64,000 bases of DNA from an uncultured Fibrobacteraceae bacterium (lineage in GTDB: Bacteria; Krumholzibacteriota; Krumholzibacteriia; LZORAL124-64-63): assembly GCA_964524645.1 (NCBI GenBank), contig CAZGEC010000023.1, positions 618 through 64,617 of the forward strand, read 5' to 3'. Both the position numbers and the translations under genes were made by a program. Below the pieces are notes generated by a model, which worked only from the letters and a program-made list of their open reading frames with translations, was not told the DNA's origin and ran no database searches. How positions within the stretch are numbered: position 1 is the stretch's first letter; each line of letters starts with the position of its first letter. Positions 1-54,892 of the stretch are shown here, piece after piece.

Positions 1-111
1 GTCGGAATCGAAGTACAAGCCGAGTCCGTCGGGATACGGATCGAGCTGGGCCGTGGCCTCGCCGCCGACGACCAGGGCGACCAGGACTGCAAGCGTGATC
101 AATCTCTTCAT
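1..111 (-). CDS. Secreted protein, 5' part only (runs off the window start); paralog of 2973..3572
   Basis: Not in the ORF track. Reads MKRLITLAVLVALVVGGEATAQLDPYPDGLGLYFDSD after RBS GAGGAGGAAAGGGC; aligns with MKKLIALAILATLAGGGQATAQVDPLPDGIGMYFDTG of 2973..3572, which has the same RBS context. Confidence 0.8.
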   Translation of the reverse strand, partial: MKRLITLAVLVALVVGGEATAQLDPYPDGLGLYFDSD

Positions 112-2972: not shown

Positions 2973-3572
2973 CTACCTGTACAGCGCCTTGATGGAGCCG
3001 AAGCTGGACTTCGCGCTGGGGAATGTATGGCAAGGGTCGGTCCAGCTTGGATTCAAGAAGGCCACTGGGAGTTCGGGATAGCCGAAGATCGTGTGCAGCG
3101 GAATCACGATACCCGGATCGTCGCCGACCCTGTATGCCGGAAGCCCCGGGATCGAGGGGTTGTCTGCATGGTCCAGGTAAAAGCGGACGGTTGTTACGTT
3201 GAAGACAAGGATCTGGTAAGTCGCCAGCAGCATGATCGGAGCATTCGGCATTGGCGTCGCCAGGCTGACCACGAAGTCGGGCGCCGTGCTCGCGTTCGAG
3301 GAGCCCGCGGGCAGGACCCAGCCGAGCTCGTAGTCGCCGGGTGGGACCGTGTACGTCACGTGGCATTCCCAGCCCGAGATGCCCGACGGCTGGCTGCAAT
3401 GGGTCAGGATCAGGTAGACCTCCGCCAGACCGCCCACGAAGTCCAGGCAATACTCCGTGGCGCCGGTGTCGAAGTACATGCCGATGCCGTCGGGAAGCGG
3501 GTCGACCTGGGCCGTGGCCTGGCCGCCGCCGGCCAGGGTGGCAAGGATTGCCAGCGCGATCAGCTTCTTCAT
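2973..3572 (-). CDS. Secreted protein (199 aa) with C-terminal SFGSIKALYR motif
   Basis: RBS GAGGAGG, signal peptide MKKLIALAILATLAGGGQATA, beta-rich body, motif at the extreme C-terminus. Confidence 0.8.
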   Translation of the reverse strand: MKKLIALAILATLAGGGQATAQVDPLPDGIGMYFDTGATEYCLDFVGGLAEVYLILTHCSQPSGISGWECHVTYTVPPGDYELGWVLPAGSSNASTAPDFVVSLATPMPNAPIMLLATYQILVFNVTTVRFYLDHADNPSIPGLPAYRVGDDPGIVIPLHTIFGYPELPVAFLNPSWTDPCHTFPSAKSSFGSIKALYR

Positions 3573-6874: not shown

Positions 6875-8758
6875 TCACCTGATCAGTGTCAGGCGGTCGG
6901 TGCCAACCTCGGTGCCGGCCTGGATCCGGTAGAAGTACACACCGGAAGGGATCGGCCGTCCAATCGCGTCGAGACCGCGCCAGATCACCTCGTGCCTGCC
7001 CGCCGCGCGACGCTCCTGCAACAGCGTGACCAGGAGCCTGCCGGCGAGCGTGTACACGGTCACGGTGACGTCCGCCGCCGTCGGCAGATCGAAGGCGATG
7101 ACCGTGGCCGGATTGAAGGGATTGGGGTAGTTCCCGTGCAGGGCGAAGCAGGCGGGCGCCGCAGCCGCCACGGGAGAGAGCGTGTCGATGGTCAGGGTCG
7201 TCGTGTCCTCGTCGTTCAGCCCCTCGCTGTCGATGACGCGCAGCAGGACCGGCAAAGGGGTGTCGGTCGCCAGATTGGCCAGGAACGCCCAGGGGACCAG
7301 GGGTGTGGACCCGGTGAAGTCGAAGCTGCCATTGTCGTCCAGATCCCAGAAGAAGCTGAGGGTGTCGCCACACGGCTCGTTGATATCGGATGCCGAGCCC
7401 GTGAGCTGGAGGTCCTCGCCAGCCTCGATTTCGTAGGGGCCGCCGGCGTCGGCCACGGGTGCATCGTTGGGCATGGTCAGGACCCTGATCTGTACCGCAT
7501 TGGTATCGCTCAATAGGAGGCCATCCACGATCTGCAAGGTGGCGGTGTAATCTCCGGCCAGCAGGTAGCGATGGACCGGTGTACTGAGCGGATCGGCGGT
7601 CGTGTAATCCGGATCCGCGCTGGTATCCCACCACAGCCCGTCGCTGGCATCGAAATCCCAGTTGTAGGCGATGATGTCCGCACCACAGACCTCTGAACTG
7701 CTGCTGCCGTGATTGAAGTACACGTTGCCGAACGTCTCCCCGGCGCATCCCTCCAGCACCTCCGGAGGGGAGGCGCTGGCTACGGCGACCGGCGGTGGCG
7801 GCAGCGGCGTCTCTGGCCAGGCGCCGATGAGATCACACTCGGGATTCGGGGGGTTGGACGGATAGCAGGGAGAGGCGGCACTGATGTACAGCTCGGGCGA
7901 GAAGGGGTCGCAGAACAGCGGGTCGAGCTGGATGTTGCCGTTGATACCTAGCTGACCGGCGGCCGGGCCGACCCAGTTGCCCAGATCGTTGCCATAGAAG
8001 TCACAGCAGGTGATACCCGAGATGGTTCCGCCACCGCCAAAGTAAAGCCCGAACCCGTTCGTGGTGAACGCGATGATGGTCTGGCTCAGAGCGACGCTGG
8101 CGGACTGGACGAAGATTGCACAGGCCTCGGAGCTGGAAGCGGTGCACGAGTTGTGGGCGAAGGAGCAGCTCTCGAAGCTCGGAATGTACGGAGGGGAGGC
8201 GCCCGCGACCCGGACGATGCTCCGCTGGGACGAGACGTTGTTCCAGAACGTGCAGCGCAGGATATGGGGCCAGGCGTATTCGCACGCCATGGCGGCTCCG
8301 GTCGCGGAACCCAGCGCCGAGTTGCTCTGGAGTATGCAGTCCTGGATGGTGGGGCTGGCCCCGTTGTAGCAGTAGATCGCGCCACCCGAGCCATTGCCGA
8401 GGTAGGCGTTCTCGATGGTGACCCCGCCCAGGGTCGCCCCCGAGGTGCTCCCGCCCGTGATGATGAAGCCACGATGAGGCGAGCTGCTCGAACCCTGGCA
8501 GTCGATGATGCACTGCGGGGCTTGGCCGCTCTGCGACAGGATGACGATGGCTCGGGCCAGGCTGATGTCCCGGTTGCCAGCTCCCTGGAACACGCCATCG
8601 GCCAGCAGGATCGTATCGCCGGGGGCGACGGCGTTGACGGCGAGCTGGATGTTGGGGTAGCTACCGCTGCCGTCGGGTTCGACCACGTGGACACTGCCCA
8701 AGGCCAACGAGGCAGCGCCGATCAGGGCCATCGCGGCCAGAATCGATGCTTTGTGCAT
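6875..8758 (-). CDS. Secreted protein: parallel beta-helix repeats + PKD-like Ig domains + FlgD-Ig/T9SS-type-A-like C-terminal domain
   Basis: Signal peptide; GGAIYC-type repeats; YNWDFD and VADAGGPY PKD-like motifs; NYPNPFNP...SGVYFYRI C-terminal domain. Confidence 0.75.
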   Translation of the reverse strand: MHKASILAAMALIGAASLALGSVHVVEPDGSGSYPNIQLAVNAVAPGDTILLADGVFQGAGNRDISLARAIVILSQSGQAPQCIIDCQGSSSSPHRGFIITGGSTSGATLGGVTIENAYLGNGSGGAIYCYNGASPTIQDCILQSNSALGSATGAAMACEYAWPHILRCTFWNNVSSQRSIVRVAGASPPYIPSFESCSFAHNSCTASSSEACAIFVQSASVALSQTIIAFTTNGFGLYFGGGGTISGITCCDFYGNDLGNWVGPAAGQLGINGNIQLDPLFCDPFSPELYISAASPCYPSNPPNPECDLIGAWPETPLPPPPVAVASASPPEVLEGCAGETFGNVYFNHGSSSSEVCGADIIAYNWDFDASDGLWWDTSADPDYTTADPLSTPVHRYLLAGDYTATLQIVDGLLLSDTNAVQIRVLTMPNDAPVADAGGPYEIEAGEDLQLTGSASDINEPCGDTLSFFWDLDDNGSFDFTGSTPLVPWAFLANLATDTPLPVLLRVIDSEGLNDEDTTTLTIDTLSPVAAAAPACFALHGNYPNPFNPATVIAFDLPTAADVTVTVYTLAGRLLVTLLQERRAAGRHEVIWRGLDAIGRPIPSGVYFYRIQAGTEVGTDRLTLIR

Positions 8759-18678: not shown

Positions 18679-20169
18679 TCACTTCACGTAGCTGATCTTG
18701 AGGGCCGGTGCGGCGGGATATGCCGGCAGGCGAGCGAAGTAGACTCCCGAGGCCAGCGGGGCGCCGGTGTGGTCCCGCGCGTCCCAGCTCCAGACACCGT
18801 GCCCGGCCTGCAGCGCAACCGTGCCCGAGCCGACGCGCCGGCCGCGTGCATCGCAGATCTCCAGCTGCACCGCGGACGTTCCCGGCGGCCCGTCCACCGA
18901 CAGGCTGACCCGGCCGTTGAAGGGATTGGGGCGGGCGGCGAGGCTGTAGCTCGCGACGGCCGGCGGCGCATCGCCCGCGCCGTTCAAGCCCGCGGCCGGG
19001 CGGGCCAGCGTGGCCAGGGCCGCCACCAGCACCTTCACCGAGCCCACCGCGAAGTCGGGATCGACGTGCGCCAGGACGTCCTGCGTCGAATGGTAGTAGG
19101 GATTGAAGTCGGGATCCCACCAGTCCCAGGCCTCCTCGTGGTTGATGGCGGGGTAGCCCTCCCCCCAGAACGAGGCGTGATCCCCCCACCAGGCACCGTC
19201 GTCCACGTGCAGGATGTACGGCATGTCGGTGTAGAGGTCGGCCGCGGCGGTGACGAGGTCGGCCAGCCAGACCGAAGCCTGGTTGCTCTCGATCTCCAGG
19301 TCGAACGGCACGCCGGACGTCCAGTAGCCCAGCATGTCACCGTTCAGGACGCCCGCGATGGGCATGCCGCGGCTCCGCGCATAGGCGGCGTAGGCGGCGC
19401 TCCCTTCCAGCCCCTGCTCCTCTCCCGCGAAGCAGATGTAGCGGACCGAGTACTTGAAGGGGTGCTGCGAGAGGATCTCGGCGGCCGCCAGGACCGCGGC
19501 CGTGCCGCTGGCGTTGTCGTCGGCGCCGGGGGCCGAGACGTAGGGATCGCCGGAAATCGAATCGTAGTGCCCGCAGATCACGAAGAACGAGTCCGCATGC
19601 ACGGTGCCGGTCTGCGTGGCGACCACGTTGAGCATCGCGTTGCCGTCGAGAGTGAAGGTGTGGTCGTCCGCCGTCAGGCCCAGGCCGGCGAAGAAGGCCT
19701 GCAGGCTCTCGGCGGCGGCGTCGCACTGGGGGCTGTAGCTGTAGCGCGTGCCGAAGGCCTGGAGCCAGGCGATCTTCTGCGAGAGGCCGGTCCAGCTCAC
19801 CTGGTCCACCAGGGCCTGGATCGCCGGATCGGCCGCCTTGGCCGGAACGGCCGGCATGGCCCCCCGCGAGGATCCGGCAGGCGTGGCGGGCGGCGCCGCG
19901 CCCGGGTCGATCCAGGCGATCTGGCAGCCGCGGCGGGCCAGCTCCTCCACGGCGGCCCGCGGGCCGGAGACCAGCCACCGACCCTCGCCGCCCGCGAGAA
20001 CGGTCACCCCGGGCACGGCCGGCAGCTCACCGGCGGTTCGCACGAGGCAGACCCGGGCGGGCAGCTCCGCCGCGGCGAGGCCGAACTGCACCAGAGCCGG
20101 ATGCTCCCGCGCGAGCGCGTTGGTCGTCAGGACGGCGATAAGGAGGCAGGCCGGGGCGGCGAAGCGCAT
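18679..20169 (-). CDS. M28 family aminopeptidase with FlgD-Ig/T9SS-like C-terminal domain
   Basis: Signal peptide; GHYDS, GADDNASG, GEEQGL.GS, GDMLG, DHASFW, YYHS; PNPFN...SGVYFARL C-terminal domain. Confidence 0.85.
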   Translation of the reverse strand: MRFAAPACLLIAVLTTNALAREHPALVQFGLAAAELPARVCLVRTAGELPAVPGVTVLAGGEGRWLVSGPRAAVEELARRGCQIAWIDPGAAPPATPAGSSRGAMPAVPAKAADPAIQALVDQVSWTGLSQKIAWLQAFGTRYSYSPQCDAAAESLQAFFAGLGLTADDHTFTLDGNAMLNVVATQTGTVHADSFFVICGHYDSISGDPYVSAPGADDNASGTAAVLAAAEILSQHPFKYSVRYICFAGEEQGLEGSAAYAAYARSRGMPIAGVLNGDMLGYWTSGVPFDLEIESNQASVWLADLVTAAADLYTDMPYILHVDDGAWWGDHASFWGEGYPAINHEEAWDWWDPDFNPYYHSTQDVLAHVDPDFAVGSVKVLVAALATLARPAAGLNGAGDAPPAVASYSLAARPNPFNGRVSLSVDGPPGTSAVQLEICDARGRRVGSGTVALQAGHGVWSWDARDHTGAPLASGVYFARLPAYPAAPALKISYVK

Positions 20170-20266
20170 GGTGGTCTCCCGGAGATGTACAGTCCGTGGT
20201 GTGCGACCACGCTCATGATAGCACCGGCGAGCGCGGAGGGACAGGGGCGATCGGCGCCGGCCGCGG

Positions 20267-21259
20267 TCAGCGTTTCTTGCGGGGACGCTTCGGCGGATCC
20301 GGAGCACTCGCCTCCTGCGGGGAAGGCTCCTGTTCCGCCGCTCCTGGCTCGTCCTCGTCCGTGACGGTCTGACCGTAGAGGTTCTCCGCCGGGGGGCGGC
20401 CGCGTCGTTCCAGCGAGACGAAGCACTCCCGGTAGTTCGGCCGGTTGCTGCGGTTGCAGGCGATGAGCGCCTGCACCACCTCCCAGCTCAGCTTGTCCTG
20501 GGCGGCGAGATCGGTCAGCTCCTCGAGGGCGGTGCGGTTGTCGAATGACTCGTTGCGATAGGGACGCGGGGAGAGCAGCGCGTCATAGATGTCGCTGGCC
20601 GCCACGATCTCGACCATGCGATCGAACTGACGGATCCCCTGGGGATAACCGGACCCGTCCCGCTTCTCGTGATGGTCGCGCGCCACCAGCGCGGGGAGGT
20701 TGCGGCGGTTCTGGAAATGATGGATGAGCAGCACGTACCCGGCGGCGGCGTGGTGCTGCAGGTGCAGCCGTTCCTGCGTGGTCAACGGCGAGGTCTTCTG
20801 CAGGACCTCCAGAGGAACGCAGATCTTGCCGAAGTCGTGCGTGGGGCCGGCCATCGCTTCCTGGATCATGTCCTTGTGGTCGGTCACCAGCTCCTGGGCC
20901 AGGCGCGTGGCCACGGCGAAGACCAGCAGGATGTGGCGGTAGGTGTAGAAGTCCCGCGCCCGGAAGTAGTCCAGGGAGCGCAGCACCGCCGGCGGCACCT
21001 CCACCTGCTTCATCAACGCCTGCACCGAGGAGCGTACCGTAGCGTCGGAGAAGATCTCCTGGTAGGGAGATCGCTCCATGAAGACCTCGAGATCGCCGGC
21101 TATGCTCCCGTGCCGCAGCAGCGGTCGCGCGGGGGGCGGCTCGTGCCGATGTCGCTCCAGCATCTCCTGCAGGGCGTCGTCGTCGACCGGCGTGCCGGCC
21201 ACCATGAGCGTCTTTCCGTCGAGGGTCTGCACGGGAAAGTCCAGCACGATCGGCTTCAT
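20267..21259 (-). CDS. HD-GYP domain protein (putative cyclic dinucleotide phosphodiesterase)
   Basis: HDFGK, HHEKRDGSGYP, DIYDAL..PRPYR. Confidence 0.85.
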   Translation of the reverse strand: MKPIVLDFPVQTLDGKTLMVAGTPVDDDALQEMLERHRHEPPPARPLLRHGSIAGDLEVFMERSPYQEIFSDATVRSSVQALMKQVEVPPAVLRSLDYFRARDFYTYRHILLVFAVATRLAQELVTDHKDMIQEAMAGPTHDFGKICVPLEVLQKTSPLTTQERLHLQHHAAAGYVLLIHHFQNRRNLPALVARDHHEKRDGSGYPQGIRQFDRMVEIVAASDIYDALLSPRPYRNESFDNRTALEELTDLAAQDKLSWEVVQALIACNRSNRPNYRECFVSLERRGRPPAENLYGQTVTDEDEPGAAEQEPSPQEASAPDPPKRPRKKR

Positions 21260-25187: not shown

Positions 25188-25937
25188 TCATCGGTAGAGC
25201 TGCTTGACCTGGCCCCAGCTGTGCTCCTCGGCCAGCAGGCTCCCGCTTGTCGAGACGAGCCGGAAGGTCCGGCCCAGGGGGATCAAGGGCTGCAGCTGGA
25301 CGATCCCCACCCCCTCGCTGTACCAGCGATCCAGGGCGGGACTGCTCTGCAGGCCCAGCCGGAAGGCCGGCTCGCGGCCCGCCGGGAGATCGACCTCCTC
25401 CACGCCCCTCACCGTGAAGGCGTACCTGACCGGCAGGCCGGCTCCGCTGCCCTCCAGATCGTCGTACTGGGTGGTGGTGCCGGCCCAGCTCTTGCCGGCT
25501 GCGAGCGGGAGGTCCACGTAGAGCAGGGGCGGGTCGTAGAGCACGGTCTCACCCGTGTCCAGACGCCGGTGGCCGTGCAGCAGCAGGTCGCCTTCGTCGT
25601 CACGGGAGCAGTACATCTCGTAGCGCAGGACGTCGCGGCGGGAGGCGACCTCGTGCTCCAGCACCGTGGCGATCCGTCCTCGCAGAAGGCGGGTGCCGGC
25701 GACGGTGACCGTGAGCACGGTCCCGGCTTCGTCCTGGTAGATCCACTGGCGGCCGGTCTCCAGCGGGCAGGGATCGCCGGCCAGGCCCGGGGTTGCGAGG
25801 CCGAGGAAGCAGAGAGCCAGGGAGGTGGCCAGGAAGAGGGCCCGCAGGGGCGCAGGATTCGCGGCTGGGAGCGGGGATCGCCGCGCCCGATCGCTCGCGG
25901 CGGGGAGGAATCCGGGTCGGCGTGATGGGTAGCGCAT
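25188..25937 (-). CDS. Secreted beta-rich protein with C-terminal SWGQVKQLYR motif
   Basis: RBS GAAAGGA; hydrophobic signal LFLATSLALCFLGLATPGLA; PLETG.QW.Y, LP.G...AF, WYSEGVGIV segments. Confidence 0.75.
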   Translation of the reverse strand: MRYPSRRPGFLPAASDRARRSPLPAANPAPLRALFLATSLALCFLGLATPGLAGDPCPLETGRQWIYQDEAGTVLTVTVAGTRLLRGRIATVLEHEVASRRDVLRYEMYCSRDDEGDLLLHGHRRLDTGETVLYDPPLLYVDLPLAAGKSWAGTTTQYDDLEGSGAGLPVRYAFTVRGVEEVDLPAGREPAFRLGLQSSPALDRWYSEGVGIVQLQPLIPLGRTFRLVSTSGSLLAEEHSWGQVKQLYR

Positions 25938-44532: not shown

Positions 44533-45927
44533 TCAGGGGGTGACGTAGCCGAGGGAGCGGAGCTGGGCCTTCTCCTGCTCGGTCATGGGCGGCTGGACAA
44601 ACTGGCGGGTGGCCTGCTTCCGCTCGGCGCCGAAGCGGGCGATGCGGTCGCGGCAGGCGGCCACGATGTCGGGCTCGCTCTCGCAACGGTTCCGGGCCTC
44701 GCGGGCATCCTCGACGAGGTTGAACAGCTCGTCCCGGCCGTCGGAAGACAGGATGAACTTCCAGGGCCAGTCGATCAGCGCCATGCGCACGCGCTGGAAG
44801 CGATGGCCCCAGACCGGGTTGAAGAGGTCCTTGTCGCGGGTGTAGTAGTTCTCGGCCAGCACCGGATGCTGGCCCGGCCGGTCCGGAAAGGCGAAGGCAT
44901 GGCGGGCGGCCGCCTCGCCGCCGCAAGCGGCCAGGATCATCCCCGGCAGGTCGGTGCCCGCGATCACCGTGTCGCTGATCCGACCCAGGCGCTGGCCGGG
45001 CTCACGGATGATCAAGGGCACCCAGAGCGCCTCCTGGTAGATGTCCTTGGAATGCTCCACCAGGTGATGCTCGCCGAAGTACTCCCCGTGATCGCTGGTC
45101 AGGACGACGAGCGTGCGCTCGGCGAGCCCCAGCCGCTGCAGCTCGTCCAGCAGGTCACCAATCCCCTCGTCGACGTTGGCCACGCCCGTGTCGTACTGAT
45201 CGATCACCTGCTGGACCAGATCCTGCGGGATGGGCCCCTCGCCGGGCATGACCGCTGCGTAGAGCCGGTCGAGCAGCTCGCCGTCGTCGAGCACTGCCGG
45301 CGGGTCCAGGAAACCCTCGCGCGGCGTGGCATTGTAGGGACGGTGCGTGTCCATGTAGTTGATGAACAGGAAGAACGGCTCCTGCGCGTGGCTCTCCAGC
45401 CAGGCGAAGACGCGCTGGTTCAGCTCCGGAGCCCGGAGGCGCTCGGGCTCGTAGACCTCGAACCCCTGGTCCAGCAGCCACCGCCGAGCCAGGTAGGCGA
45501 TGTTGGCCACGAAGGCCGCGGTGCGGTAGCCGCTGTCGGTGAGGACCTCCGCCAGGGTCAGCTGCTCGGGATCGAGCGGGTTGGCGTTGTTGCCCGGCGC
45601 TTCGGTGGGGAAGGTGCGGGCCCCGTGCTCGAAGGGGTACTTGCCCGTGAAGAGCGTGGCATGGGAGGGCAGGGTCCAGGGCGAAGCGGCGAAGGCCCGG
45701 CGGTAAAGCGTGGCCGTCCTGGCGAAGTCATCGATCCGCGGCGACGTGGGACGCCCGTAGCCGTAGCAGCCCAGGTGATCAGCTCGCAGGGCATCGAGGG
45801 TGACCAGGACGACGTTGACCGGCCGGCCGGCGGGCTCTTGCTCCCGGCCGGACCGGCAGCCTCCGAGGAGCAGGAGCGCCGCGAGAACCGGCACGCCGAG
45901 AGAGCAGGAACGGAGCAGGCGTTGCAT
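44533..45927 (-). CDS. Sulfatase-like hydrolase/transferase lipoprotein (alkaline phosphatase superfamily)
   Basis: Lipobox LGGC; VTLDALRADH, WTLPSHATLFTG, YMDTHRPY, TSDHGE, VPLII. Confidence 0.85.
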   Translation of the reverse strand: MQRLLRSCSLGVPVLAALLLLGGCRSGREQEPAGRPVNVVLVTLDALRADHLGCYGYGRPTSPRIDDFARTATLYRRAFAASPWTLPSHATLFTGKYPFEHGARTFPTEAPGNNANPLDPEQLTLAEVLTDSGYRTAAFVANIAYLARRWLLDQGFEVYEPERLRAPELNQRVFAWLESHAQEPFFLFINYMDTHRPYNATPREGFLDPPAVLDDGELLDRLYAAVMPGEGPIPQDLVQQVIDQYDTGVANVDEGIGDLLDELQRLGLAERTLVVLTSDHGEYFGEHHLVEHSKDIYQEALWVPLIIREPGQRLGRISDTVIAGTDLPGMILAACGGEAAARHAFAFPDRPGQHPVLAENYYTRDKDLFNPVWGHRFQRVRMALIDWPWKFILSSDGRDELFNLVEDAREARNRCESEPDIVAACRDRIARFGAERKQATRQFVQPPMTEQEKAQLRSLGYVTP

Positions 45928-46314: not shown

Positions 46315-47034
46315 ATGAAGTTCATGCGCATGTTGATCCCAAGCCTGCTACTGCTGGTGCTGGCGCTGCCGGCCATGGCCCAGTGCCCCGACCAGGTCGG
46401 CATCTTCATGACCGGCAACGGCACCCTGCTGCCAGGCCGGGTCTCGGAGGCCTGGTGCGGCGCTGGCGGCGAACCCGTCATGCCCGGCCGTCCCGGCAAC
46501 ACCGAGAATGCCATGTCCTGGGACGGCACGATCCTGGGCACCCAGTGGCGCGTCTGGGGCATGGCGATCGACGCGAGCGGGGCCGTGGAGATCGGCAACA
46601 CGGTGGACGTCAACGGCGACGGCACCATCACCTACTCCACGAATTACCTGGGCGGCGAGTTCTGGCTCTCCAAGGATTACCCCTGGAGCTTCGGGATCGT
46701 CGACCTGACGGGAGACCTCAGCTCCTACCTGGTGATCACCACGGTCACCTACGTCGCGGGCAACGCGGTGGGAGCCACGTCCAACGTCTCCTTCACGGGT
46801 GTCTTCTCGGATTGCCCGGCGGCCAACGGCTGCGTCATCGAGTTCGCGATCGCCAACGCCATGCTGGTCTGGAGCAGCGCCTACGGCGTTCCGATGCCCG
46901 TGGACTACCCCGACCTGCTGTGCGGGGCCGACATGGGCGAGCTCTTCGATGCCTGCTGCATCACGGTCAACCTGGACTGCCTCGTGTCCGCGGAGGGATC
47001 CAGCTGGGGCGGCGTAAAGAGCCTTTACAGGTAG
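46315..47034 (+). CDS. Secreted Cys-containing protein with C-terminal SWGGVKSLYR motif
   Basis: RBS GAGGTG; signal peptide MKFMRMLIPSLLLLVLALPAMA; beta-rich body. Confidence 0.8.
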   Translation: MKFMRMLIPSLLLLVLALPAMAQCPDQVGIFMTGNGTLLPGRVSEAWCGAGGEPVMPGRPGNTENAMSWDGTILGTQWRVWGMAIDASGAVEIGNTVDVNGDGTITYSTNYLGGEFWLSKDYPWSFGIVDLTGDLSSYLVITTVTYVAGNAVGATSNVSFTGVFSDCPAANGCVIEFAIANAMLVWSSAYGVPMPVDYPDLLCGADMGELFDACCITVNLDCLVSAEGSSWGGVKSLYR

Positions 47035-52186: not shown

Positions 52187-54892
52187 TTATCGCAGCAGGA
52201 GCATCTTGCGCGTCCGGGAGCGGCCGTCCAGCTCGAGCCGGTAGAGATAGGCTCCACTCGGCAGGGCGCGGCCCCGGTCGTCGCGGCCGTCCCAGTCGAC
52301 GGCGTGGGAGCCGGGTGACTGCCGGGACTGCACCAGCGTGCGCACGCAGCGTCCCGCCAGGTCGAAAACGGCCAGCCGGACCATCCCCTCCCGCGACAGC
52401 TGGTAGGCGATGGTGGTCCGCGGGTTGAAGGGGTTGGGCTGGTTGGCGGCCAGCACGAAGGGCGGGGTCGCCGGGACGGCCTCCGGCACGGCCGTGAGCG
52501 TCGAGAGCAGCGGGCGCTCGTAGACCCCGTTGCCGTGGGTCGCGGCGCGCAGTTCGTGGCTCGCCAGCGAGATCGTCAGGTCGATGACCATCACGGCTTC
52601 CGGCAGCCCCAGGCCGTAGTCGTCCCAGGTGTCGCCGCCGTCCCGCGAGACGAAGATCCCCAGATCGTTGCCCACGTAGACGTGAGAGGTCGCGAACGGG
52701 TCCACGACCACGCTGGAGGTGGGCACGTCGGGCAGGCCCGCGCCGATGTCGTCCCAGGTGTCGCCGCCGTCCAGGGACCGGAACACGTGCGAGGTGCCGA
52801 AGCCGGAGGCGGTCAGGAAGACGATGTCGGGATCGAAGGGATGGATGCACAGCCCCACGAGGTAGCGGTCCGGCAGGGTGCCGGTGACGTTCTGCCAGGA
52901 GGCGGCCCCGTCGGTGGTGCGGAACACGCCGGCACGCGTGACCGTCGGGGCCGTCGTCACGTAGACCCGCTGGGGATCGGTCAGCGCCACGTCCAGGGAG
53001 AGCGCCGGGTTGCCGTCCAGGTCCTGGTTGGCGTTGGTCACGCTCCAGTTCACGCCCCCGTTGATGGACTTGTAGATACGGCTGCGGCCGGCGTAGATGG
53101 TGCCGGGCGCCTGCGGGCCGCTCACGGCGTAAGGCGCGATGAAGCCCGTGGTTCCCTGTTCGGGCGGCGTGATCTCGAACCAGCTCGCACCGGAGTTGGT
53201 GGACTTGAAGAGCATGAGGTACTGGGCCGTGCCGTAGAGCGTGCTGTCGGTCACGGGATCGATGGCGGCCCAGCCGCCGTCTCCCCCGATCAGGCGATAC
53301 CAGGCATCCAGGCCGACGTAGAGGCCGGTGGAGTTGTCCTGCATGCCGCCGATGGCCCAGCTGGAGTCATGCCAGGAGCTGCAGAAGCCGGGATAGAACT
53401 GCGCGGTCTGCAGGCCGCCGTTGCAGCCAGCGAAGGTCTCGCCGCCGTCCAGCGAGCGGAACACGCCCCCATCGTTGGCGAGGTAGATCACGTCGTGATC
53501 CACCGGGTGGAAGACGAGGTCGTGGTGGTCGGCGTGGGAGAAGCTGGGCGGCCCCTCGGGTTCGCCGGGCAGCACGAGGCCGAAGTAGGCGGCCTCCCAG
53601 TCCGACTTCTGCTGGAGGTTCGCGCCTCCCGCGGTGGACTTCCAGACGTCCACGCCGACGGCGATCACGATGCTCGGGTCGTCCGGGTGGATCGCCACGT
53701 CGTGGGAGAACCAGCCCTGCCAGAGGGAGTAGTCCTGGCTGGAGGGACGGGTCCAGGTGTCGCCGTTGTCCTCGCTGCGGACGAGCCAGGTGGCGTTGCC
53801 GCCCAGGCCGCCGTTGCCGATGCTGGCCATCACGACGTTGGGCTGGGACTCGCAGATCGAGAGCAGCGCCTTGCCCCGGTAGATGCTGGGCACGATGTAG
53901 AGCTGCTCCATCTTGGTCCAGCTCTGCCCGCCGTCCAGGGTGCGGTACAGCCCGTGGCCCGGGCTGTTCAGGTTGCCGCAGGCGGCGAACACGGTGTCCG
54001 TATGGGCCGGGTTGATCACGATGTCGGTGGTCATGACGACAGCGTGCACGTGTTGCCAGGTGAGGCCCGCGTCCCCGGACCTGTAGATGCCCTCGGTCGT
54101 GCCGGCCCAGACCACCTCCGGGCGCTTGGGATCGACGCGGATCACCTGCACGCCCCGCTCCTGATGGTAGGACCAGTCCAGGCTCTTCGCCCAGGTCCGC
54201 CCGCCGTCCTCGCTCTTGAGGATGCCGATGCCGTAGCTTCCCCGGGCCAGCCGCTCGGTGATGCCGCCGGTCGAGCTCTGGTAGCCGTAGACCTCGCCCG
54301 TCCCGATGTACAGCACGTTCGAGTCGCCGGGGGCGAAGGCGATGGCGCCCACGCCCGGCACCGGGTGACCCGTGGGCACGTACTCCCAGGCATCGGCGCC
54401 CACGCCGGCGGTGAAGCTGCGCCAGAGCCCGCCGCTGGCCGCGCCCGCGTAGATGGTGCGGGGATTCTGGGGATTGCAGGCGAGCGCCAGCATGCGGCCG
54501 GCGATGTTGCGGGGACCGATGGGCCGCCAGGGCCGTGCGCCGCGCCCCTTGGCCTGCGGCTCGCGGAACCTGGTCTTGACGAGGTCGAAGGCCTCGCTGT
54601 AACCCCGGGCGGGAAACGTGTCGCGGGGGTAGGCGCGCTGGCCGGCCCAGTAGACGAGGGACTGCAGGGCGCCGGAAGTGCGATGCGGCTCGCCGGCGGA
54701 TTCCTCCCGGCCCTCGTCCTCCCGGATGACCGGATTCAACCGCGCCGGCAAGGGACCAGGATGGGCCACGCCATCCCGGGATCCGGCCGTCGGCTCGGTG
54801 AGCGGTGAGGCGGGGGACAGGATCAACCAGGAGAAGACCGTCAGACCCAGCAGCGAAGCGAGGAGCACGGCCAGCTTGCCGAGGTGCTTCAT
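52187..54892 (-). CDS. Secreted BNR/Asp-box repeat (sortilin/VPS10-like) protein with FlgD-Ig/T9SS-like C-terminal domain
   Basis: Many SxDGGxTW repeats, HADHH, NDGGVFRS, ATHGNG; PNPFNP...SGAYLYRL C-terminal domain. Confidence 0.85.
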   Translation of the reverse strand: MKHLGKLAVLLASLLGLTVFSWLILSPASPLTEPTAGSRDGVAHPGPLPARLNPVIREDEGREESAGEPHRTSGALQSLVYWAGQRAYPRDTFPARGYSEAFDLVKTRFREPQAKGRGARPWRPIGPRNIAGRMLALACNPQNPRTIYAGAASGGLWRSFTAGVGADAWEYVPTGHPVPGVGAIAFAPGDSNVLYIGTGEVYGYQSSTGGITERLARGSYGIGILKSEDGGRTWAKSLDWSYHQERGVQVIRVDPKRPEVVWAGTTEGIYRSGDAGLTWQHVHAVVMTTDIVINPAHTDTVFAACGNLNSPGHGLYRTLDGGQSWTKMEQLYIVPSIYRGKALLSICESQPNVVMASIGNGGLGGNATWLVRSEDNGDTWTRPSSQDYSLWQGWFSHDVAIHPDDPSIVIAVGVDVWKSTAGGANLQQKSDWEAAYFGLVLPGEPEGPPSFSHADHHDLVFHPVDHDVIYLANDGGVFRSLDGGETFAGCNGGLQTAQFYPGFCSSWHDSSWAIGGMQDNSTGLYVGLDAWYRLIGGDGGWAAIDPVTDSTLYGTAQYLMLFKSTNSGASWFEITPPEQGTTGFIAPYAVSGPQAPGTIYAGRSRIYKSINGGVNWSVTNANQDLDGNPALSLDVALTDPQRVYVTTAPTVTRAGVFRTTDGAASWQNVTGTLPDRYLVGLCIHPFDPDIVFLTASGFGTSHVFRSLDGGDTWDDIGAGLPDVPTSSVVVDPFATSHVYVGNDLGIFVSRDGGDTWDDYGLGLPEAVMVIDLTISLASHELRAATHGNGVYERPLLSTLTAVPEAVPATPPFVLAANQPNPFNPRTTIAYQLSREGMVRLAVFDLAGRCVRTLVQSRQSPGSHAVDWDGRDDRGRALPSGAYLYRLELDGRSRTRKMLLLR

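What the first reader, a model, noticed from the sequence alone, without database searches (positions are those of the whole stretch)
2973..3005. Shared C-terminal S-[WF]-G-x-[IV]-K-x-L-Y-R motif on three unrelated secreted proteins: candidate new protein-sorting signal
Seen: three signal-peptide proteins with no similarity in their bodies all end in the same decapeptide right at the stop codon: SFGSIKALYR (2973..3005, minus), SWGQVKQLYR (25188..25220, minus) and SWGGVKSLYR (47002..47034, plus). Each is preceded by a short A/E/S-rich linker. The truncated paralog at 1..111 probably carries a fourth copy. Known: short conserved C-terminal tags on unrelated exported proteins are the signature of sorting systems (LPXTG, PEP-CTERM, T9SS CTD). 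Unlike the sortase and exosortase tags, this one has no TM segment and reads as a short amphipathic helix. Inference: a second export, anchoring or surface-attachment route that coexists with the FlgD-Ig CTD; no protein here carries both tags. I recall similar WGxxK termini in uncultured FCB-group and Poribacteria proteins but know of no assigned function or machinery.
Basis: partly seen in the sequence, partly recalled or inferred. Interest (0 to 1): 0.82.

Follow-up and report, generated by a model that had tools for sequence, protein, structure and literature searches.

The report
Uncatalogued C-terminal tag on exported proteins
Three unrelated exported proteins in this window end in the same ~16-residue peptide, which proves to be a widespread tag with no Pfam or NCBIfam model, carried by very many unrelated exported proteins in five poorly cultured bacterial phyla (and some of their phages); it is most likely an address or anchoring label whose reader is still unknown.

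Summary
Three ORFs end in S-[WF]-G-x-[IV]-K-x-L-Y-R-stop (chance expectation 0.00) and their bodies are BLAST-unrelated.

**How widespread.** That gave 123 tagged proteins in 71 unrelated body clusters. An exhaustive HMM search found 135 further cluster representatives, 124 with the tag within three residues of the C-terminus.

**What the tag is.** It spans about 16 residues: [VI]-x-x-[ED]-x-x-[ST]-W-G-x-[ILV]-K-x-[LM]-[YF]-[RK]. AlphaFold models it as a short helix on a flexible linker. No Pfam, NCBIfam or PDB entry covers it, and no searched paper mentions it.

**Who carries it.** Carriers are enriched for signal peptides (86% vs 29%). Bodies include choice-of-anchor domains and families that elsewhere carry PEP-CTERM, GlyGly-CTERM or T9SS signals. 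At least three body families occur with either this tag or a T9SS domain.

**New complications.** The tag can be doubled, internal, or sit just after the signal peptide. Phages encode it, once without a signal peptide. No machinery was found.

**Verdict.** A real, modular, uncurated targeting or anchoring tag, most likely a docking peptide. The mechanism is inferred only.

The parts
2973..3572 (-). p1: 199-aa exported protein (signal peptide, uncharacterised body, tag). Member of a family of small secreted proteins whose mature N-terminus reads ..G[IV]Y[FS]D..
   Evidence: Translation. No Pfam/NCBIfam hit. Tag-bearing relatives P0197 (E=1e-8), L075 and P0236.
2976..3026 (-). Tag of p1, 17 residues: TFPSAKSSFGSIKALYR (F replaces the usual W); stop codon at 2973-2975
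25188..25937 (-). p2: 249-aa exported protein with tag; body unrelated to p1 and p3
   Evidence: Translation; blastp. Tag-bearing relatives P0243 (E=9e-15) and P0148.
25191..25241 (-). Tag of p2: SLLAEEHSWGQVKQLYR; stop codon at 25188-25190
46315..47034 (+). p3: 239-aa exported Cys-rich beta-sandwich protein with tag
   Evidence: Translation. 161 homologues, and all 120 listed keep the tag or a close variant. AF2 pLDDT 91; body ends at residue 221, 222-230 are coil, W231-L237 form a helix at pLDDT ~70. No PDB fold match.
46981..47031 (+). Tag of p3: LVSAEGSSWGGVKSLYR; stop codon at 47032-47034
1..111 (-). N-terminal 37 codons of a p1 paralog, cut by the window edge; whether it carries the tag is unknown
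   Evidence: (translation of the first 240 nt) and comparison with the p1 N-terminus
6875..8758 (-). Context: T9SS-type cargo (PKD, beta-helix, FlgD_ig C-terminal domain; 627 aa). Its body is homologous to tag-bearing proteins in other genomes.
   Evidence: Pfam. blastp to L063, L103 and L118, E=1e-18 to 1e-23.
18679..20307 (-). Context: T9SS-type cargo (peptidase M28 + FlgD_ig C-terminal domain; 542 aa)
52187..54892 (-). Context: T9SS-type cargo (Sortilin/BNR + FlgD_ig C-terminal domain; 901 aa)

Best explanation
The three termini are copies of a real, modular, ~16-residue tag: [VI]-x-x-[ED]-x-x-[ST]-W-G-x-[ILV]-K-x-[LM]-[YF]-[RK], normally the last residues of the protein. Very many unrelated Sec-exported proteins carry it, both SPase-I substrates and lipoproteins, in Eisenbacteria, Krumholzibacteriota, Latescibacterota, Fibrobacterota-like and Gemmatimonadota genomes. 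Most likely mechanism (inferred, not shown): after export, the tag hangs off the folded body on a short acidic, Pro/Val/Thr-rich linker. It folds into a 2-3-turn amphipathic helix, with W1, I4, L7 and Y8 on one face, K5 and R9 at the rim, and small G2 and A/S6 on the opposite face. That helix then docks non-covalently onto a shared cell-envelope partner. Diverse cargo would thereby be addressed to, or retained at, one envelope or surface location. This is the role that PEP-CTERM, GlyGly-CTERM or T9SS C-terminal domains play for homologous bodies elsewhere. Shown: the tag exists, is modular, is conserved, associates with exported proteins, alternates with T9SS C-terminal domains, is modelled as a tethered helix, tolerates other positions, and has no existing family model. 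Inferred: that it is read in trans by a partner, that binding is non-covalent, and where the cargo ends up.
For: Modularity: 123 tagged proteins fall into 71 blastp-unrelated body clusters. An independent profile search of 1.84 billion representatives gave 135 hits at E<=1e-3 with scores piling up at the cutoff; the 71 full-length ones form 32 body clusters. Bodies have truly different folds: beta-helix, NHL propeller, LTD, CHRD, CBM20/X25, M10 peptidase, cupredoxin, NTF2-like. Conservation: two families retrieved by body homology alone show the same 16-position pattern, with W in 118/120 in both and K in 118/120 and 120/120, while the bodies are only ~50% identical. Positions left free by the search pattern also carry information. 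Exported cargo: 89/103 tagged ORFs versus 136/470 other ORFs have signal-peptide-like N-termini under one rule (odds ratio 15.6, p=1e-27); among full-length representatives 50 are SPI-like and 15 SPII-like of 71. Address-like behaviour: bodies hit choice-of-anchor W and J, ExeM (GlyGly-CTERM), ScyF and PepA (PEP-CTERM), a myxosortase-dependent protease and a T9SS DNase model. At least three body families occur with either this tag or a T9SS C-terminal domain. Tethered helix: AF2 of p3 and of P0147; helical hydrophobic moment ~0.5. Docking rather than cleavage: there are tandem doubled or quadrupled tags 19-25 aa apart, tags between duplicated body modules, and tags just after the signal peptide. 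One to seven extra residues after the tag are tolerated. There is no TM segment. Portability: phage contigs encode tagged proteins. Not already catalogued: no Pfam or NCBIfam model matches more than 6 of 123 proteins and none matches the tag itself; no PDB chain matches the tag profile at E<=10; no paper was found.
Against: No partner, receptor or processing enzyme was identified. Nothing is conserved next to tagged genes in 118 8-kb loci or in the window apart from common T9SS-cargo, kinase and sigma-factor genes. No experiment or proteomic datum bears on whether the tag is retained or on where the cargo ends up. All carriers are MAGs. The near-invariance of W, G, K and Y fits an enzyme recognition site as well as a docking site. 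One phage metallophosphoesterase carries the tag without a signal peptide, which an envelope-only reader does not explain. Tagged ORFs show an unexplained stop-codon bias.
Confidence: 0.45

Rival explanations
1. A true secretion or sorting signal that is recognised and removed. The tag would direct periplasmic intermediates across or into the outer membrane, either through a dedicated translocon or as a minimal alternative signal for the resident T9SS. A peptidase or transpeptidase would then cleave it, possibly attaching the cargo covalently.
For: The bodies are typical extracellular or surface proteins: CBM20/X25, nuclease, M10 peptidase, adhesin-like beta-helix and PMP repeats. The organisms are diderm (TonB-dependent receptor and TolC in the window). 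Homologous bodies carry either the tag or a T9SS C-terminal domain. Carrier genomes are rich in T9SS cargo (18 of 118 loci). Near-invariant residues suit an enzyme site. The end of the tag ([IV]-K-x-L-Y-R) loosely resembles the hydrophobic-basic end of the window's T9SS domains (..KMLLLR..RLTLIR).
Against: The tag is 16 residues and helical, whereas the T9SS domain is a ~70-100-aa Ig-like beta-sandwich; FlgD_ig and Por_Secre_tail models do not hit it. Tandem, internal and N-terminal copies are not expected for a terminal cleaved signal. None of the 59 labelled loci is Bacteroidota although T9SS is universal there. No peptidase is co-located.
Confidence: 0.22
2. A generic in-plane membrane anchor. 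The amphipathic helix would insert into a membrane interface (outer leaflet of the inner membrane, or a leaflet of the outer membrane), like the C-terminal membrane-targeting helices of MinD and FtsA or the C-terminal amphipathic anchor of PBP5/6. No protein partner would be needed.
For: AF2 models a short helix. W/I/L/Y form one face flanked by K and R, with hydrophobic moment ~0.5. Trp, Tyr, Lys and Arg are classic interfacial residues (established knowledge). Tandem copies would raise avidity. The absence of any co-located machinery gene is expected under this model.
Against: Lipid-binding helices are conserved in character rather than in sequence. Here W, G, K and Y are near-invariant across five phyla and unrelated bodies, and the conserved acidic and Pro/Val upstream half has no role in lipid binding. 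Ten helical residues are marginal for stable binding of a monomer. Lipoproteins that already have a lipid anchor also carry the tag.
Confidence: 0.15
3. A nascent-chain element acting inside the ribosome. It would be a SecM-, VemP- or TnaC-like elongation-arrest or termination-pausing peptide that couples release of the chain to engagement with the export machinery.
For: It is a conserved ~16-residue stretch immediately before the stop codon, on proteins with signal peptides, as in SecM and VemP (established knowledge). A Trp sits ~9 residues from the P-site residue. No trans-acting machinery was found. Stop-codon usage is biased: TGA follows 27% of tagged ORFs versus 50-63% of other exported ORFs (p=0.002). 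One tag sits on a phage protein without a signal peptide.
Against: Known arrest peptides belong to single dedicated regulatory ORFs upstream of sec or yidC genes; they are not found on dozens of enzymes and adhesins per genome. Tags occur right after the signal peptide, between modules, and with 1-7 trailing residues. The window's tagged genes are not followed by export genes. Alternation with T9SS domains on homologous bodies points to a post-translational address.
Confidence: 0.04
4. A covalent attachment handle. The invariant Lys, or the terminal Arg/Lys, would be cross-linked to peptidoglycan or another envelope polymer, as the C-terminal ..YRK of Braun's lipoprotein is linked by L,D-transpeptidases.
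For: The Lys is invariant. The ending ..L-Y-[RK] is reminiscent of the Lpp ending ..K-Y-R-K (from memory; a lead only). The carriers are diderm.
Against: The terminal residue is Arg in most cases and can be Q, N or E. The conserved Lys is internal. Nothing else resembles Lpp. No L,D-transpeptidase association was seen.
Confidence: 0.04
5. Not a modular element at all. The carriers would be divergent members of one superfamily and the tail merely its best-conserved strand or helix.
For: Many carriers are small (median 233 aa) uncharacterised beta-rich proteins, and some of the 71 clusters may be remote homologues of one another.
Against: Carriers include demonstrably different folds. In the AF2 model of p3 the tag lies outside the fold on a coil linker. 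Homologous bodies exist without the tag, carrying a T9SS domain instead.
Confidence: 0.02

Closest known systems
T9SS type-A C-terminal domain (TIGR04183 / PF18962 Por_Secre_tail; PF13860 FlgD_ig-like CTDs of FCB bacteria)
   Same: It is a C-terminal add-on to signal-peptide proteins with unrelated bodies, it occurs in the same phyla and the same genomes, and it alternates with this tag on homologous bodies. Both end hydrophobic-hydrophobic-basic.
   Different: The T9SS domain is a folded ~70-100-aa Ig-like 3+4 beta-sandwich (abstract of PMC11285876, listed), whereas this tag is ~16 residues, helical and tethered. The Pfam CTD models do not hit it. The tag can be repeated or internal. None of the 59 labelled loci is Bacteroidota. 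In the window, T9SS cargo is large (542-901 aa) and tag cargo small (199-249 aa).
Tripartite sortase-type signals: LPXTG/sortase, PEP-CTERM/exosortase, GlyGly-CTERM/rhombosortase, MYXO-CTERM/myxosortase, PGF-CTERM/archaeosortase
   Same: Each is a short conserved C-terminal signature on many unrelated exported proteins. The same body families are involved: choice-of-anchor W and J, ExeM, ScyF, PepA, and the MXAN_2677-type protease.
   Different: Those signals consist of a motif, a hydrophobic TM helix and a basic cluster, and each has a cognate membrane protease (abstract of bioRxiv 10.1101/2023.06.07.544157 as listed for the signal-enzyme pairs; the tripartite layout is established knowledge). 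This tag has no TM segment, no cognate enzyme was found, and it tolerates internal and tandem positions.
C-terminal amphipathic membrane-targeting helices (MinD and FtsA MTS; PBP5/PBP6 anchor)
   Same: Similar size (~10 helical residues), extreme C-terminal position, amphipathic with flanking basic residues, and stronger in tandem.
   Different: Those helices are conserved in physicochemical character only and act on cytoplasmic proteins (MinD, FtsA) or single enzyme families. This tag is near-invariant at W, G, K and Y, has a conserved acidic linker, and sits on exported proteins of many families.
Dockerin-cohesin and other non-covalent display modules (SLH, LysM, GW, choline-binding repeats)
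   Same: A portable module appended to diverse secreted enzymes and binding domains. It is often repeated for avidity and would give a common surface address. This is the behaviour proposed here.
   Different: All of those are folded domains of 40-80 aa or more with known partners. This is a single short helix, and no cohesin-like partner is known.
Outer-membrane-protein beta-signal and the C-terminal YRK of Braun's lipoprotein
   Same: Both are short motifs at the extreme C-terminus of exported proteins in diderms, with aromatic and basic residues near the end.
   Different: The beta-signal ends in an aromatic residue on a beta-barrel body and is a beta-strand. The Lpp signal is a terminal Lys on one dedicated coiled-coil lipoprotein. 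Neither matches the W-G-x-I-K-x-L-Y-R pattern or its distribution.

Membership tests
T9SS type-A CTD (TIGR04183 / PF18962 / PF13860-like) | A folded ~70-100-residue Ig-like beta-sandwich domain at the C-terminus, detectable with the Pfam or TIGRFAM models | tested here: not met
   There are no FlgD_ig or Por_Secre_tail hits on p1-p3 or on the tag region of the 123 carriers, while the same models do hit three other window proteins. In the AF2 model the tag is a 7-residue helix after a coil.
T9SS type-A CTD (TIGR04183 / PF18962 / PF13860-like) | Located at the C-terminus of Sec signal-peptide proteins with unrelated functional bodies | tested here: met
T9SS type-A CTD (TIGR04183 / PF18962 / PF13860-like) | Secretion depends on the T9SS machinery (SprA/Sov, PorV, PorU and others), with removal of the CTD | not testable with these tools
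   No whole genomes or experiments were accessible. None of the 59 labelled loci is Bacteroidota, which argues against simple dependence on T9SS.
Sortase-type tripartite sorting signals (LPXTG, PEP-CTERM, GlyGly-CTERM, MYXO-CTERM, PGF-CTERM) | A signature motif followed by a hydrophobic transmembrane helix and a cluster of basic residues at the extreme C-terminus | tested here: not met
   The proteins end 9 residues after the Trp, with no hydrophobic stretch.
Sortase-type tripartite sorting signals (LPXTG, PEP-CTERM, GlyGly-CTERM, MYXO-CTERM, PGF-CTERM) | Co-occurrence with a cognate sortase, exosortase, rhombosortase or myxosortase gene | tested here: inconclusive
   No such gene lies in the window or recurs in the 118 8-kb loci. 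Whole-genome phylogenetic profiling was not possible.
Sortase-type tripartite sorting signals (LPXTG, PEP-CTERM, GlyGly-CTERM, MYXO-CTERM, PGF-CTERM) | Detected by an existing NCBIfam or TIGRFAM sorting-domain model | tested here: not met
   NCBIfam release 20 found nothing on the tails at E<=10, and no family shared by more than 3 of the 123 carriers.
Choice-of-anchor domain families (NCBIfam NF041928 choice_anch_W, NF038128 choice_anch_J) | The body domain scores above the curated cutoff, with a variable C-terminal anchor appended after it | tested here: met
   L055 has choice_anch_W at residues 24-214 of 235, scoring 179 bits against a cutoff of 45, followed only by the tag. Three carriers hit choice_anch_W and one hits choice_anch_J. 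This concerns those bodies only; the window's p1-p3 have no family hit.
Amphipathic membrane-targeting helix (MinD/FtsA MTS, PBP5 anchor) | A C-terminal helix with a segregated hydrophobic face and flanking basic residues | tested here: met
   AF2 helices W231-L237 in p3 and 232-237 in P0147; hydrophobic moment 0.46-0.51 at 100 degrees.
Amphipathic membrane-targeting helix (MinD/FtsA MTS, PBP5 anchor) | Conservation of character rather than identity; direct lipid binding | tested here: inconclusive
   Identity-level conservation of W, G, K and Y speaks against this feature. Lipid binding cannot be tested here.
OMP beta-signal | A terminal aromatic residue closing a beta-barrel body | tested here: not met
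   The terminal residue is R or K. The bodies are soluble folds: beta-sandwich, NTF2-like, beta-helix.
Translational arrest peptides (SecM, VemP, MifM, TnaC) | A single dedicated small ORF upstream of the gene it regulates, with ribosome stalling demonstrated | tested here: not met
   The tag is on many enzyme and adhesin families per genome. The genes downstream of the window's carriers are peptidase C69, a radical-SAM gene on the opposite strand, and an aminotransferase. Stalling itself is not testable here.

The most novel reading that the evidence does not exclude
The tag is the cargo half of a previously undescribed, lineage-wide protein addressing or display system of the non-Bacteroidota FCB phyla (Eisenbacteria, Krumholzibacteriota, Latescibacterota, Fibrobacterota, Gemmatimonadota). 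A 16-residue tethered helix would be read by an unidentified envelope receptor or translocon. The system would run in parallel with T9SS, handle mostly small cargo, and be exploited by these bacteria's phages, for example to place phage lipoproteins on the host envelope.
Probability: 0.45. Interest if true: 0.85.

Novelty: new variant of a known kind. Interest (0 to 1): 0.72.

Why it matters
C-terminal tags shared by unrelated exported proteins have repeatedly led to new envelope machinery: sortases, exosortases, rhombosortase, myxosortase and T9SS. This tag is as widespread as several of those. Yet it has no Pfam or NCBIfam model, no searched paper mentions it, and the carriers whose source names were returned are labelled 'hypothetical protein'.

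It also differs in kind from every described class: it has no TM segment, it is not a folded domain, it is helical, and it tolerates other positions. Its reader is therefore probably something new.

In practice, a model of the tag would re-annotate many hypothetical proteins in five poorly understood, environmentally abundant phyla as envelope-addressed or secreted. It would define a second cargo set alongside T9SS cargo, give phylogenetic profiling a clean query for finding the partner, and offer a compact 16-residue portable tag for display if the mechanism is confirmed. The phage-encoded copies suggest the partner is relevant to phage-host interaction.

Tried and rejected
1. **DNA repeat or terminator.** Rejected: synonymous sites differ and similarity ends at the stop codon.
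2. **An existing model.** Pfam and NCBIfam on full proteins, on isolated tails at E<=10, and on all 123 carriers gave nothing for the tag. A PDB sequence search with the tag profile gave 0 hits at E<=10.
3. **Tail-profile search of the word-indexed 5.8-billion-protein database.** The 40-column version collected only 8 candidates, so one search was largely wasted. The exhaustive representative search worked instead.
4. **Machinery by gene neighbourhood.** Clustering all ORFs of the 118 loci gave only T9SS-domain-linked proteins (18 loci), Ser/Thr kinases (8), ECF sigma factors (5), and amidohydrolase and sulfatase-TPR (3 each). None is credible as a reader. The window's neighbours are housekeeping genes.
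5. **The NTF2-like lipoprotein family as receptor.** This was considered because its own C-terminal tag is modelled at pLDDT ~91.
6. **Survey of homologues of a choice-of-anchor-W carrier for other anchors.** All 120 listed homologues keep the tag or a degenerate form of it, so the 'choice' could not be tabulated from that list. The alternation was shown with T9SS domains instead.
7. **Top profile hits that are look-alikes.** Set aside: P0127 (tape-measure-like, 6x WSALKALYRWSPLG) and P0162 (plant LRR). P0258 (pentapeptide-repeat protein with 3x KTWGSVKELFGQGE) is unclear.
8. **Literature.** Six searches, including literal motif strings, and one paper read found nothing on this tag.
9. **First signal-peptide comparison.** Discarded because start-codon handling differed between the two sets. 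It was redone with one rule.
Full report
**Observation.** A six-frame scan finds the motif, and even the loose core [WF]Gx[IVL]K, nowhere else in the window. The degenerate DNA pattern gives 3 matches against 0.00 expected from 100 shuffles. The DNA agrees only where the amino acids demand it and diverges after the stop, so this is protein-level conservation and not a DNA repeat. With sensible start codons the carriers are p1 (2973-3572, -, 199 aa), p2 (25188-25937, -, 249 aa) and p3 (46315-47034, +, 239 aa). All three have N-terminal signal peptides. By blastp their bodies share nothing; the only significant local alignments are the tails. The fragment at 1-111 (-) is the N-terminus of a p1 paralog, so its C-terminus lies outside the window and cannot be checked.

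**The tag travels independently of the body.** p3 has 161 homologues in the large protein database, from Krumholzibacteriia and Eisenbacteria MAGs where named. All 120 that were listed keep the tag or a close variant, although the bodies are only ~50-60% identical.

I then searched one genome per GTDB species for the back-translated tag plus stop codon. All of them are MAGs. By record title they are Eisenbacteria (32), Krumholzibacteri* (8), Latescibacter* (7), Fibrobacter(aceae) (7), Gemmatimonadota (3), Effluviviaceae (1), Limnocylindria (1) and unlabelled (59). None is labelled Bacteroidota, Proteobacteria or Firmicutes.

The 129 matches sit at the ends of ORFs of about 150-600 aa. After removing the signal peptide and the tail, 123 proteins (including the window's three) fall into 71 blastp-unrelated clusters. 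Where Pfam recognises the bodies, the folds are clearly different: beta-helix/NosD, NHL propeller, lamin-tail domain, CHRD, CBM20/X25, M10 peptidase, cupredoxin.

**The tag is longer than ten residues.** In one representative per cluster, positions that my search pattern left free still carry information: -17..-11 read P-[TV]-P-[VT]-E-x-[ST], and -4 is A/S. Two families retrieved purely by body homology (the p3 family and a choice-of-anchor-W family, 120 sequences each) give the same 16-position pattern: [VI]-x-x-[ED]-x-x-[TS]-W-G-x-[ILV]-K-x-[LM]-[YF]-[RK]. W is present in 118/120 in both, K in 118/120 and 120/120, and G in 103/120 and 109/120. The protein ends exactly at the last position in 110/120 and 93/120, and carries up to five extra residues otherwise. 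In degenerate copies the N-terminal half, [ST]-W-[GS]-x-[IVL]-K, persists longest.

**An independent census.** A 17-column profile built only from window tails and tails of returned proteins was run exhaustively against 1.84 billion cluster representatives. It returned 135 hits at E<=0.001, with scores piling up at the cutoff, so this is a floor. In 124 of the 135 the motif ends within three residues of the C-terminus. Of the 71 full-length hits, 50 have an SPase-I-like and 15 a lipoprotein-like signal peptide, and they form 32 body clusters. p1 and p2 each have tag-bearing relatives at 24-38% body identity.

**Association with export.** I applied one crude rule to all complete ORFs in the genomic loci. 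By that rule 89 of 103 tagged ORFs, versus 136 of 470 other ORFs, have a signal-peptide-like N-terminus (odds ratio 15.6, p=1e-27). An earlier comparison with unequal start-codon handling was discarded.

**Not yet catalogued.** Pfam-A and NCBIfam release 20 were run on the three proteins, on the isolated tails at E<=10, and on all 123 carriers. None gave a model for the tag: no family matches more than 6 of the 123 carriers. The carriers for which a source name was returned are called 'hypothetical protein'. A PDB sequence search with the tag profile gives nothing at E<=10. Six literature searches, including literal motif strings, and a read of the 2023 survey of C-terminal sorting signals found no mention of the tag.

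**It behaves like an address.** NCBIfam hits on the bodies are a roll-call of families that elsewhere carry other C-terminal sorting signals: choice-of-anchor W (3 carriers) and J, ExeM (GlyGly-CTERM), ScyF and PepA (PEP-CTERM), a myxosortase-dependent metalloprotease, and a T9SS-dependent DNase. One carrier, L055, is simply a signal peptide, a choice-of-anchor-W domain (residues 24-214 of 235) and the tag.

Within the collected loci, at least three body families occur with either this tag or a T9SS C-terminal domain:
- L056 and L038 versus L051 (E=1e-17 to 1e-22).
- L064's tag protein versus its neighbour (40% identity, E=6e-33).
- L063, L103 and L118 versus the window's own T9SS cargo at 6875-8758 (E=1e-18 to 1e-23).

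The window encodes three FlgD_ig-type T9SS cargo proteins of 542-901 aa and three tag proteins of 199-249 aa, and none has both. The organism is diderm, with a TonB-dependent receptor and TolC/AcrB.

**Structure.** AlphaFold2 with the family alignment models p3 at pLDDT 91. It is a beta-sandwich ending at residue 221, followed by coil at 222-230 and then a helix W231-L237 at pLDDT ~70. The body has no significant PDB match. On a helical wheel, W1, I4, L7 and Y8 form one face, K5 and R9 flank it, and G2 and A/S6 (a small-xxx-small spacing) lie opposite. The hydrophobic moment is ~0.5.

The tag is preferentially, but not obligatorily, terminal. One NTF2-like lipoprotein family shows three other arrangements; its fold assignment rests on a Foldseek match at probability 1.0.
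- Tags doubled to five-fold, 19-25 residues apart, at the C-terminus (P0126, P0128, P0130, P0133 and others).
- Tags between tandemly duplicated body modules (P0129, P0132, P0135 and others).
- Tags directly after the signal peptide as well as at the C-terminus (P0131, P0147, P0163).

In the AF2 model of P0147 the N-terminal copy is an isolated low-confidence helix. This family forms arrays of up to eight tandem paralogs (L059), yet it occurs in only 3 of 118 loci and not in the window. It is therefore just another carrier family and not an evident receptor.

**Phages.** Four of nine strict-pattern hits in IMG/VR, plus one variant-pattern hit, are real tags. L003, L004 and L007 are true phage contigs, with a DNA polymerase, a primase and a large phrog_1101 tail protein. 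L007's tagged protein is a predicted lipoprotein encoded next to the tail gene. L129's is a signal-peptide protein. L003 and L004 encode a calcineurin-like metallophosphoesterase with the tag but without any signal peptide. That last case is the one clear exception to 'exported proteins only'.

**Machinery.** None was found. Clustering all ORFs of the 118 loci yields, as recurrent neighbours, only proteins linked through the T9SS domain (18 loci), Ser/Thr kinases (8) and ECF sigma factors (5). The window's neighbours are housekeeping genes. Whole-genome profiling, which is the decisive computation, was not possible with one capped genome scan.

**Interpretation.** Shown: the tag is real, is modular, spans ~16 residues, has no Pfam or NCBIfam model, is strongly enriched on Sec-exported proteins, is lineage-restricted, alternates with T9SS domains on homologous bodies, is modelled as a tethered helix, and has been acquired by phages.

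Inferred: that it is read in trans as an address or anchor. I favour non-covalent docking onto a shared envelope partner (0.45) for four reasons. Position tolerance, tandem repetition and tolerated trailing residues are typical of binding modules and atypical of cleaved terminal signals. There is no TM segment or cognate protease. The identity-level invariance of W, G, K and Y argues for a specific protein site rather than bulk lipid. And lipoproteins, which already have a lipid anchor, carry it too.

The rivals are a cleaved outer-membrane translocation signal (0.22), a generic interfacial lipid anchor (0.15), a ribosomal arrest or termination-pausing peptide (0.04), Lpp-like covalent linkage (0.04) and shared ancestry (0.02). 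The arrest rival stays alive through one unexplained observation: TGA follows 27% of tagged ORFs versus 50-63% of other exported ORFs (p=0.002).

**Comparison and novelty.** Functionally the tag resembles the known C-terminal sorting and anchoring tags, but it fails the defining structural features of each class.
- It is not an Ig-like T9SS domain.
- It is not tripartite with a TM helix.
- It is not a beta-signal.
- It is not a folded dockerin- or SLH-type module.
- It is too sequence-specific for a generic membrane-targeting helix.

I therefore rate it a new variant of a known kind (a C-terminal address tag on exported proteins) with an unknown reader. The mechanism is inferred, and every carrier so far is uncultured, which limits immediate testing.

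Noticed in passing
L003:7893-8660(+), L004:4350-5126(-), L007:5719-6420(+), L129:9321-9962(-), L006:1-102(+): Genuine phage contigs (DNA polymerase, primase, phrog_1101 tail protein) encode proteins ending in the tag. L003 and L004 encode a metallophosphoesterase with no signal peptide. L007 encodes a predicted lipoprotein convergent with, and adjacent to, the phage tail-protein gene. L129 encodes a 214-aa secreted protein. This suggests phages exploit the host's tag reader.
   Followed up: partly
tagged ORFs in loci L010-L127 (window: TAG at 2973, TGA at 25188, TAG at 47032): Stop-codon usage after the tag is biased. TAA/TAG/TGA are 21/52/27% in tagged ORFs, against 11/39/50% in other signal-peptide ORFs and 5/32/63% in T9SS-domain ORFs of the same loci (p=0.002, crude ORF calls). 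The cause is unknown.
   Followed up: partly
L059:1646-7847(+), L029:3929-6741(-), L119:2782-3516(+); proteins P0126-P0184: An uncharacterised NTF2-like lipoprotein family has no Pfam model (Foldseek probability 1.0 to NTF2/ketosteroid-isomerase folds). It forms tandem arrays of up to eight paralogs and carries one to five copies of the tag, including internal and post-signal-peptide copies.
   Followed up: partly
window 6875-8758(-): The beta-helix body of this T9SS-type cargo (PKD + beta-helix + FlgD_ig) is homologous (E=1e-18 to 1e-23) to proteins in other genomes (L063, L103, L118) that end in the WG tag instead of a T9SS domain.
   Followed up: yes
window 46315-47034(+) and P0001-P0120: The p3 family is a conserved, Cys-rich (conserved Cys directly after the signal peptide, ..CC..C near the end) ~235-aa beta-sandwich. 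AF2 pLDDT is 91, with no significant PDB fold match and no Pfam family. In the window it sits directly downstream of a lipoprotein sulfatase gene (44533-45927, -); whether that pairing is conserved was not tested.
   Followed up: partly
window: tag proteins at 2973-3572, 25188-25937, 46315-47034; T9SS cargo at 6875-8758, 18679-20307, 52187-54892: The two cargo classes differ in size: tag carriers are 199-249 aa (median 233 aa over 123 carriers), while the window's T9SS cargo is 542-901 aa.
   Followed up: no
tag positions 2 and 6 (for example p3 residues G232 and S236): A small-xxx-small spacing (G2 ... A/S/G6) lies on the helix face opposite W1/I4/L7/Y8. This is a classic tight helix-helix packing signature and may hint at how the tag is bound.
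   Followed up: no
P0258 (535 aa) and P0127 (925 aa): These are look-alike internal repeats. P0258 is a pentapeptide-repeat protein with three KTWGSVKELFGQGE units at an 81-aa period. P0127 is a tape-measure-like protein with six WSALKALYRWSPLG units at a 39-aa period. They are probably unrelated to the tag, but this was not resolved for P0258.
   Followed up: no
window 1-111(-) and 2973-3572(-): p1 has a close paralog about 2.9 kb away, with a radical-SAM/B12 gene (444-1934, +) between them. Elsewhere, small tagged proteins commonly occur as tandem paralog arrays (L032 x4, L106 x3).
   Followed up: partly
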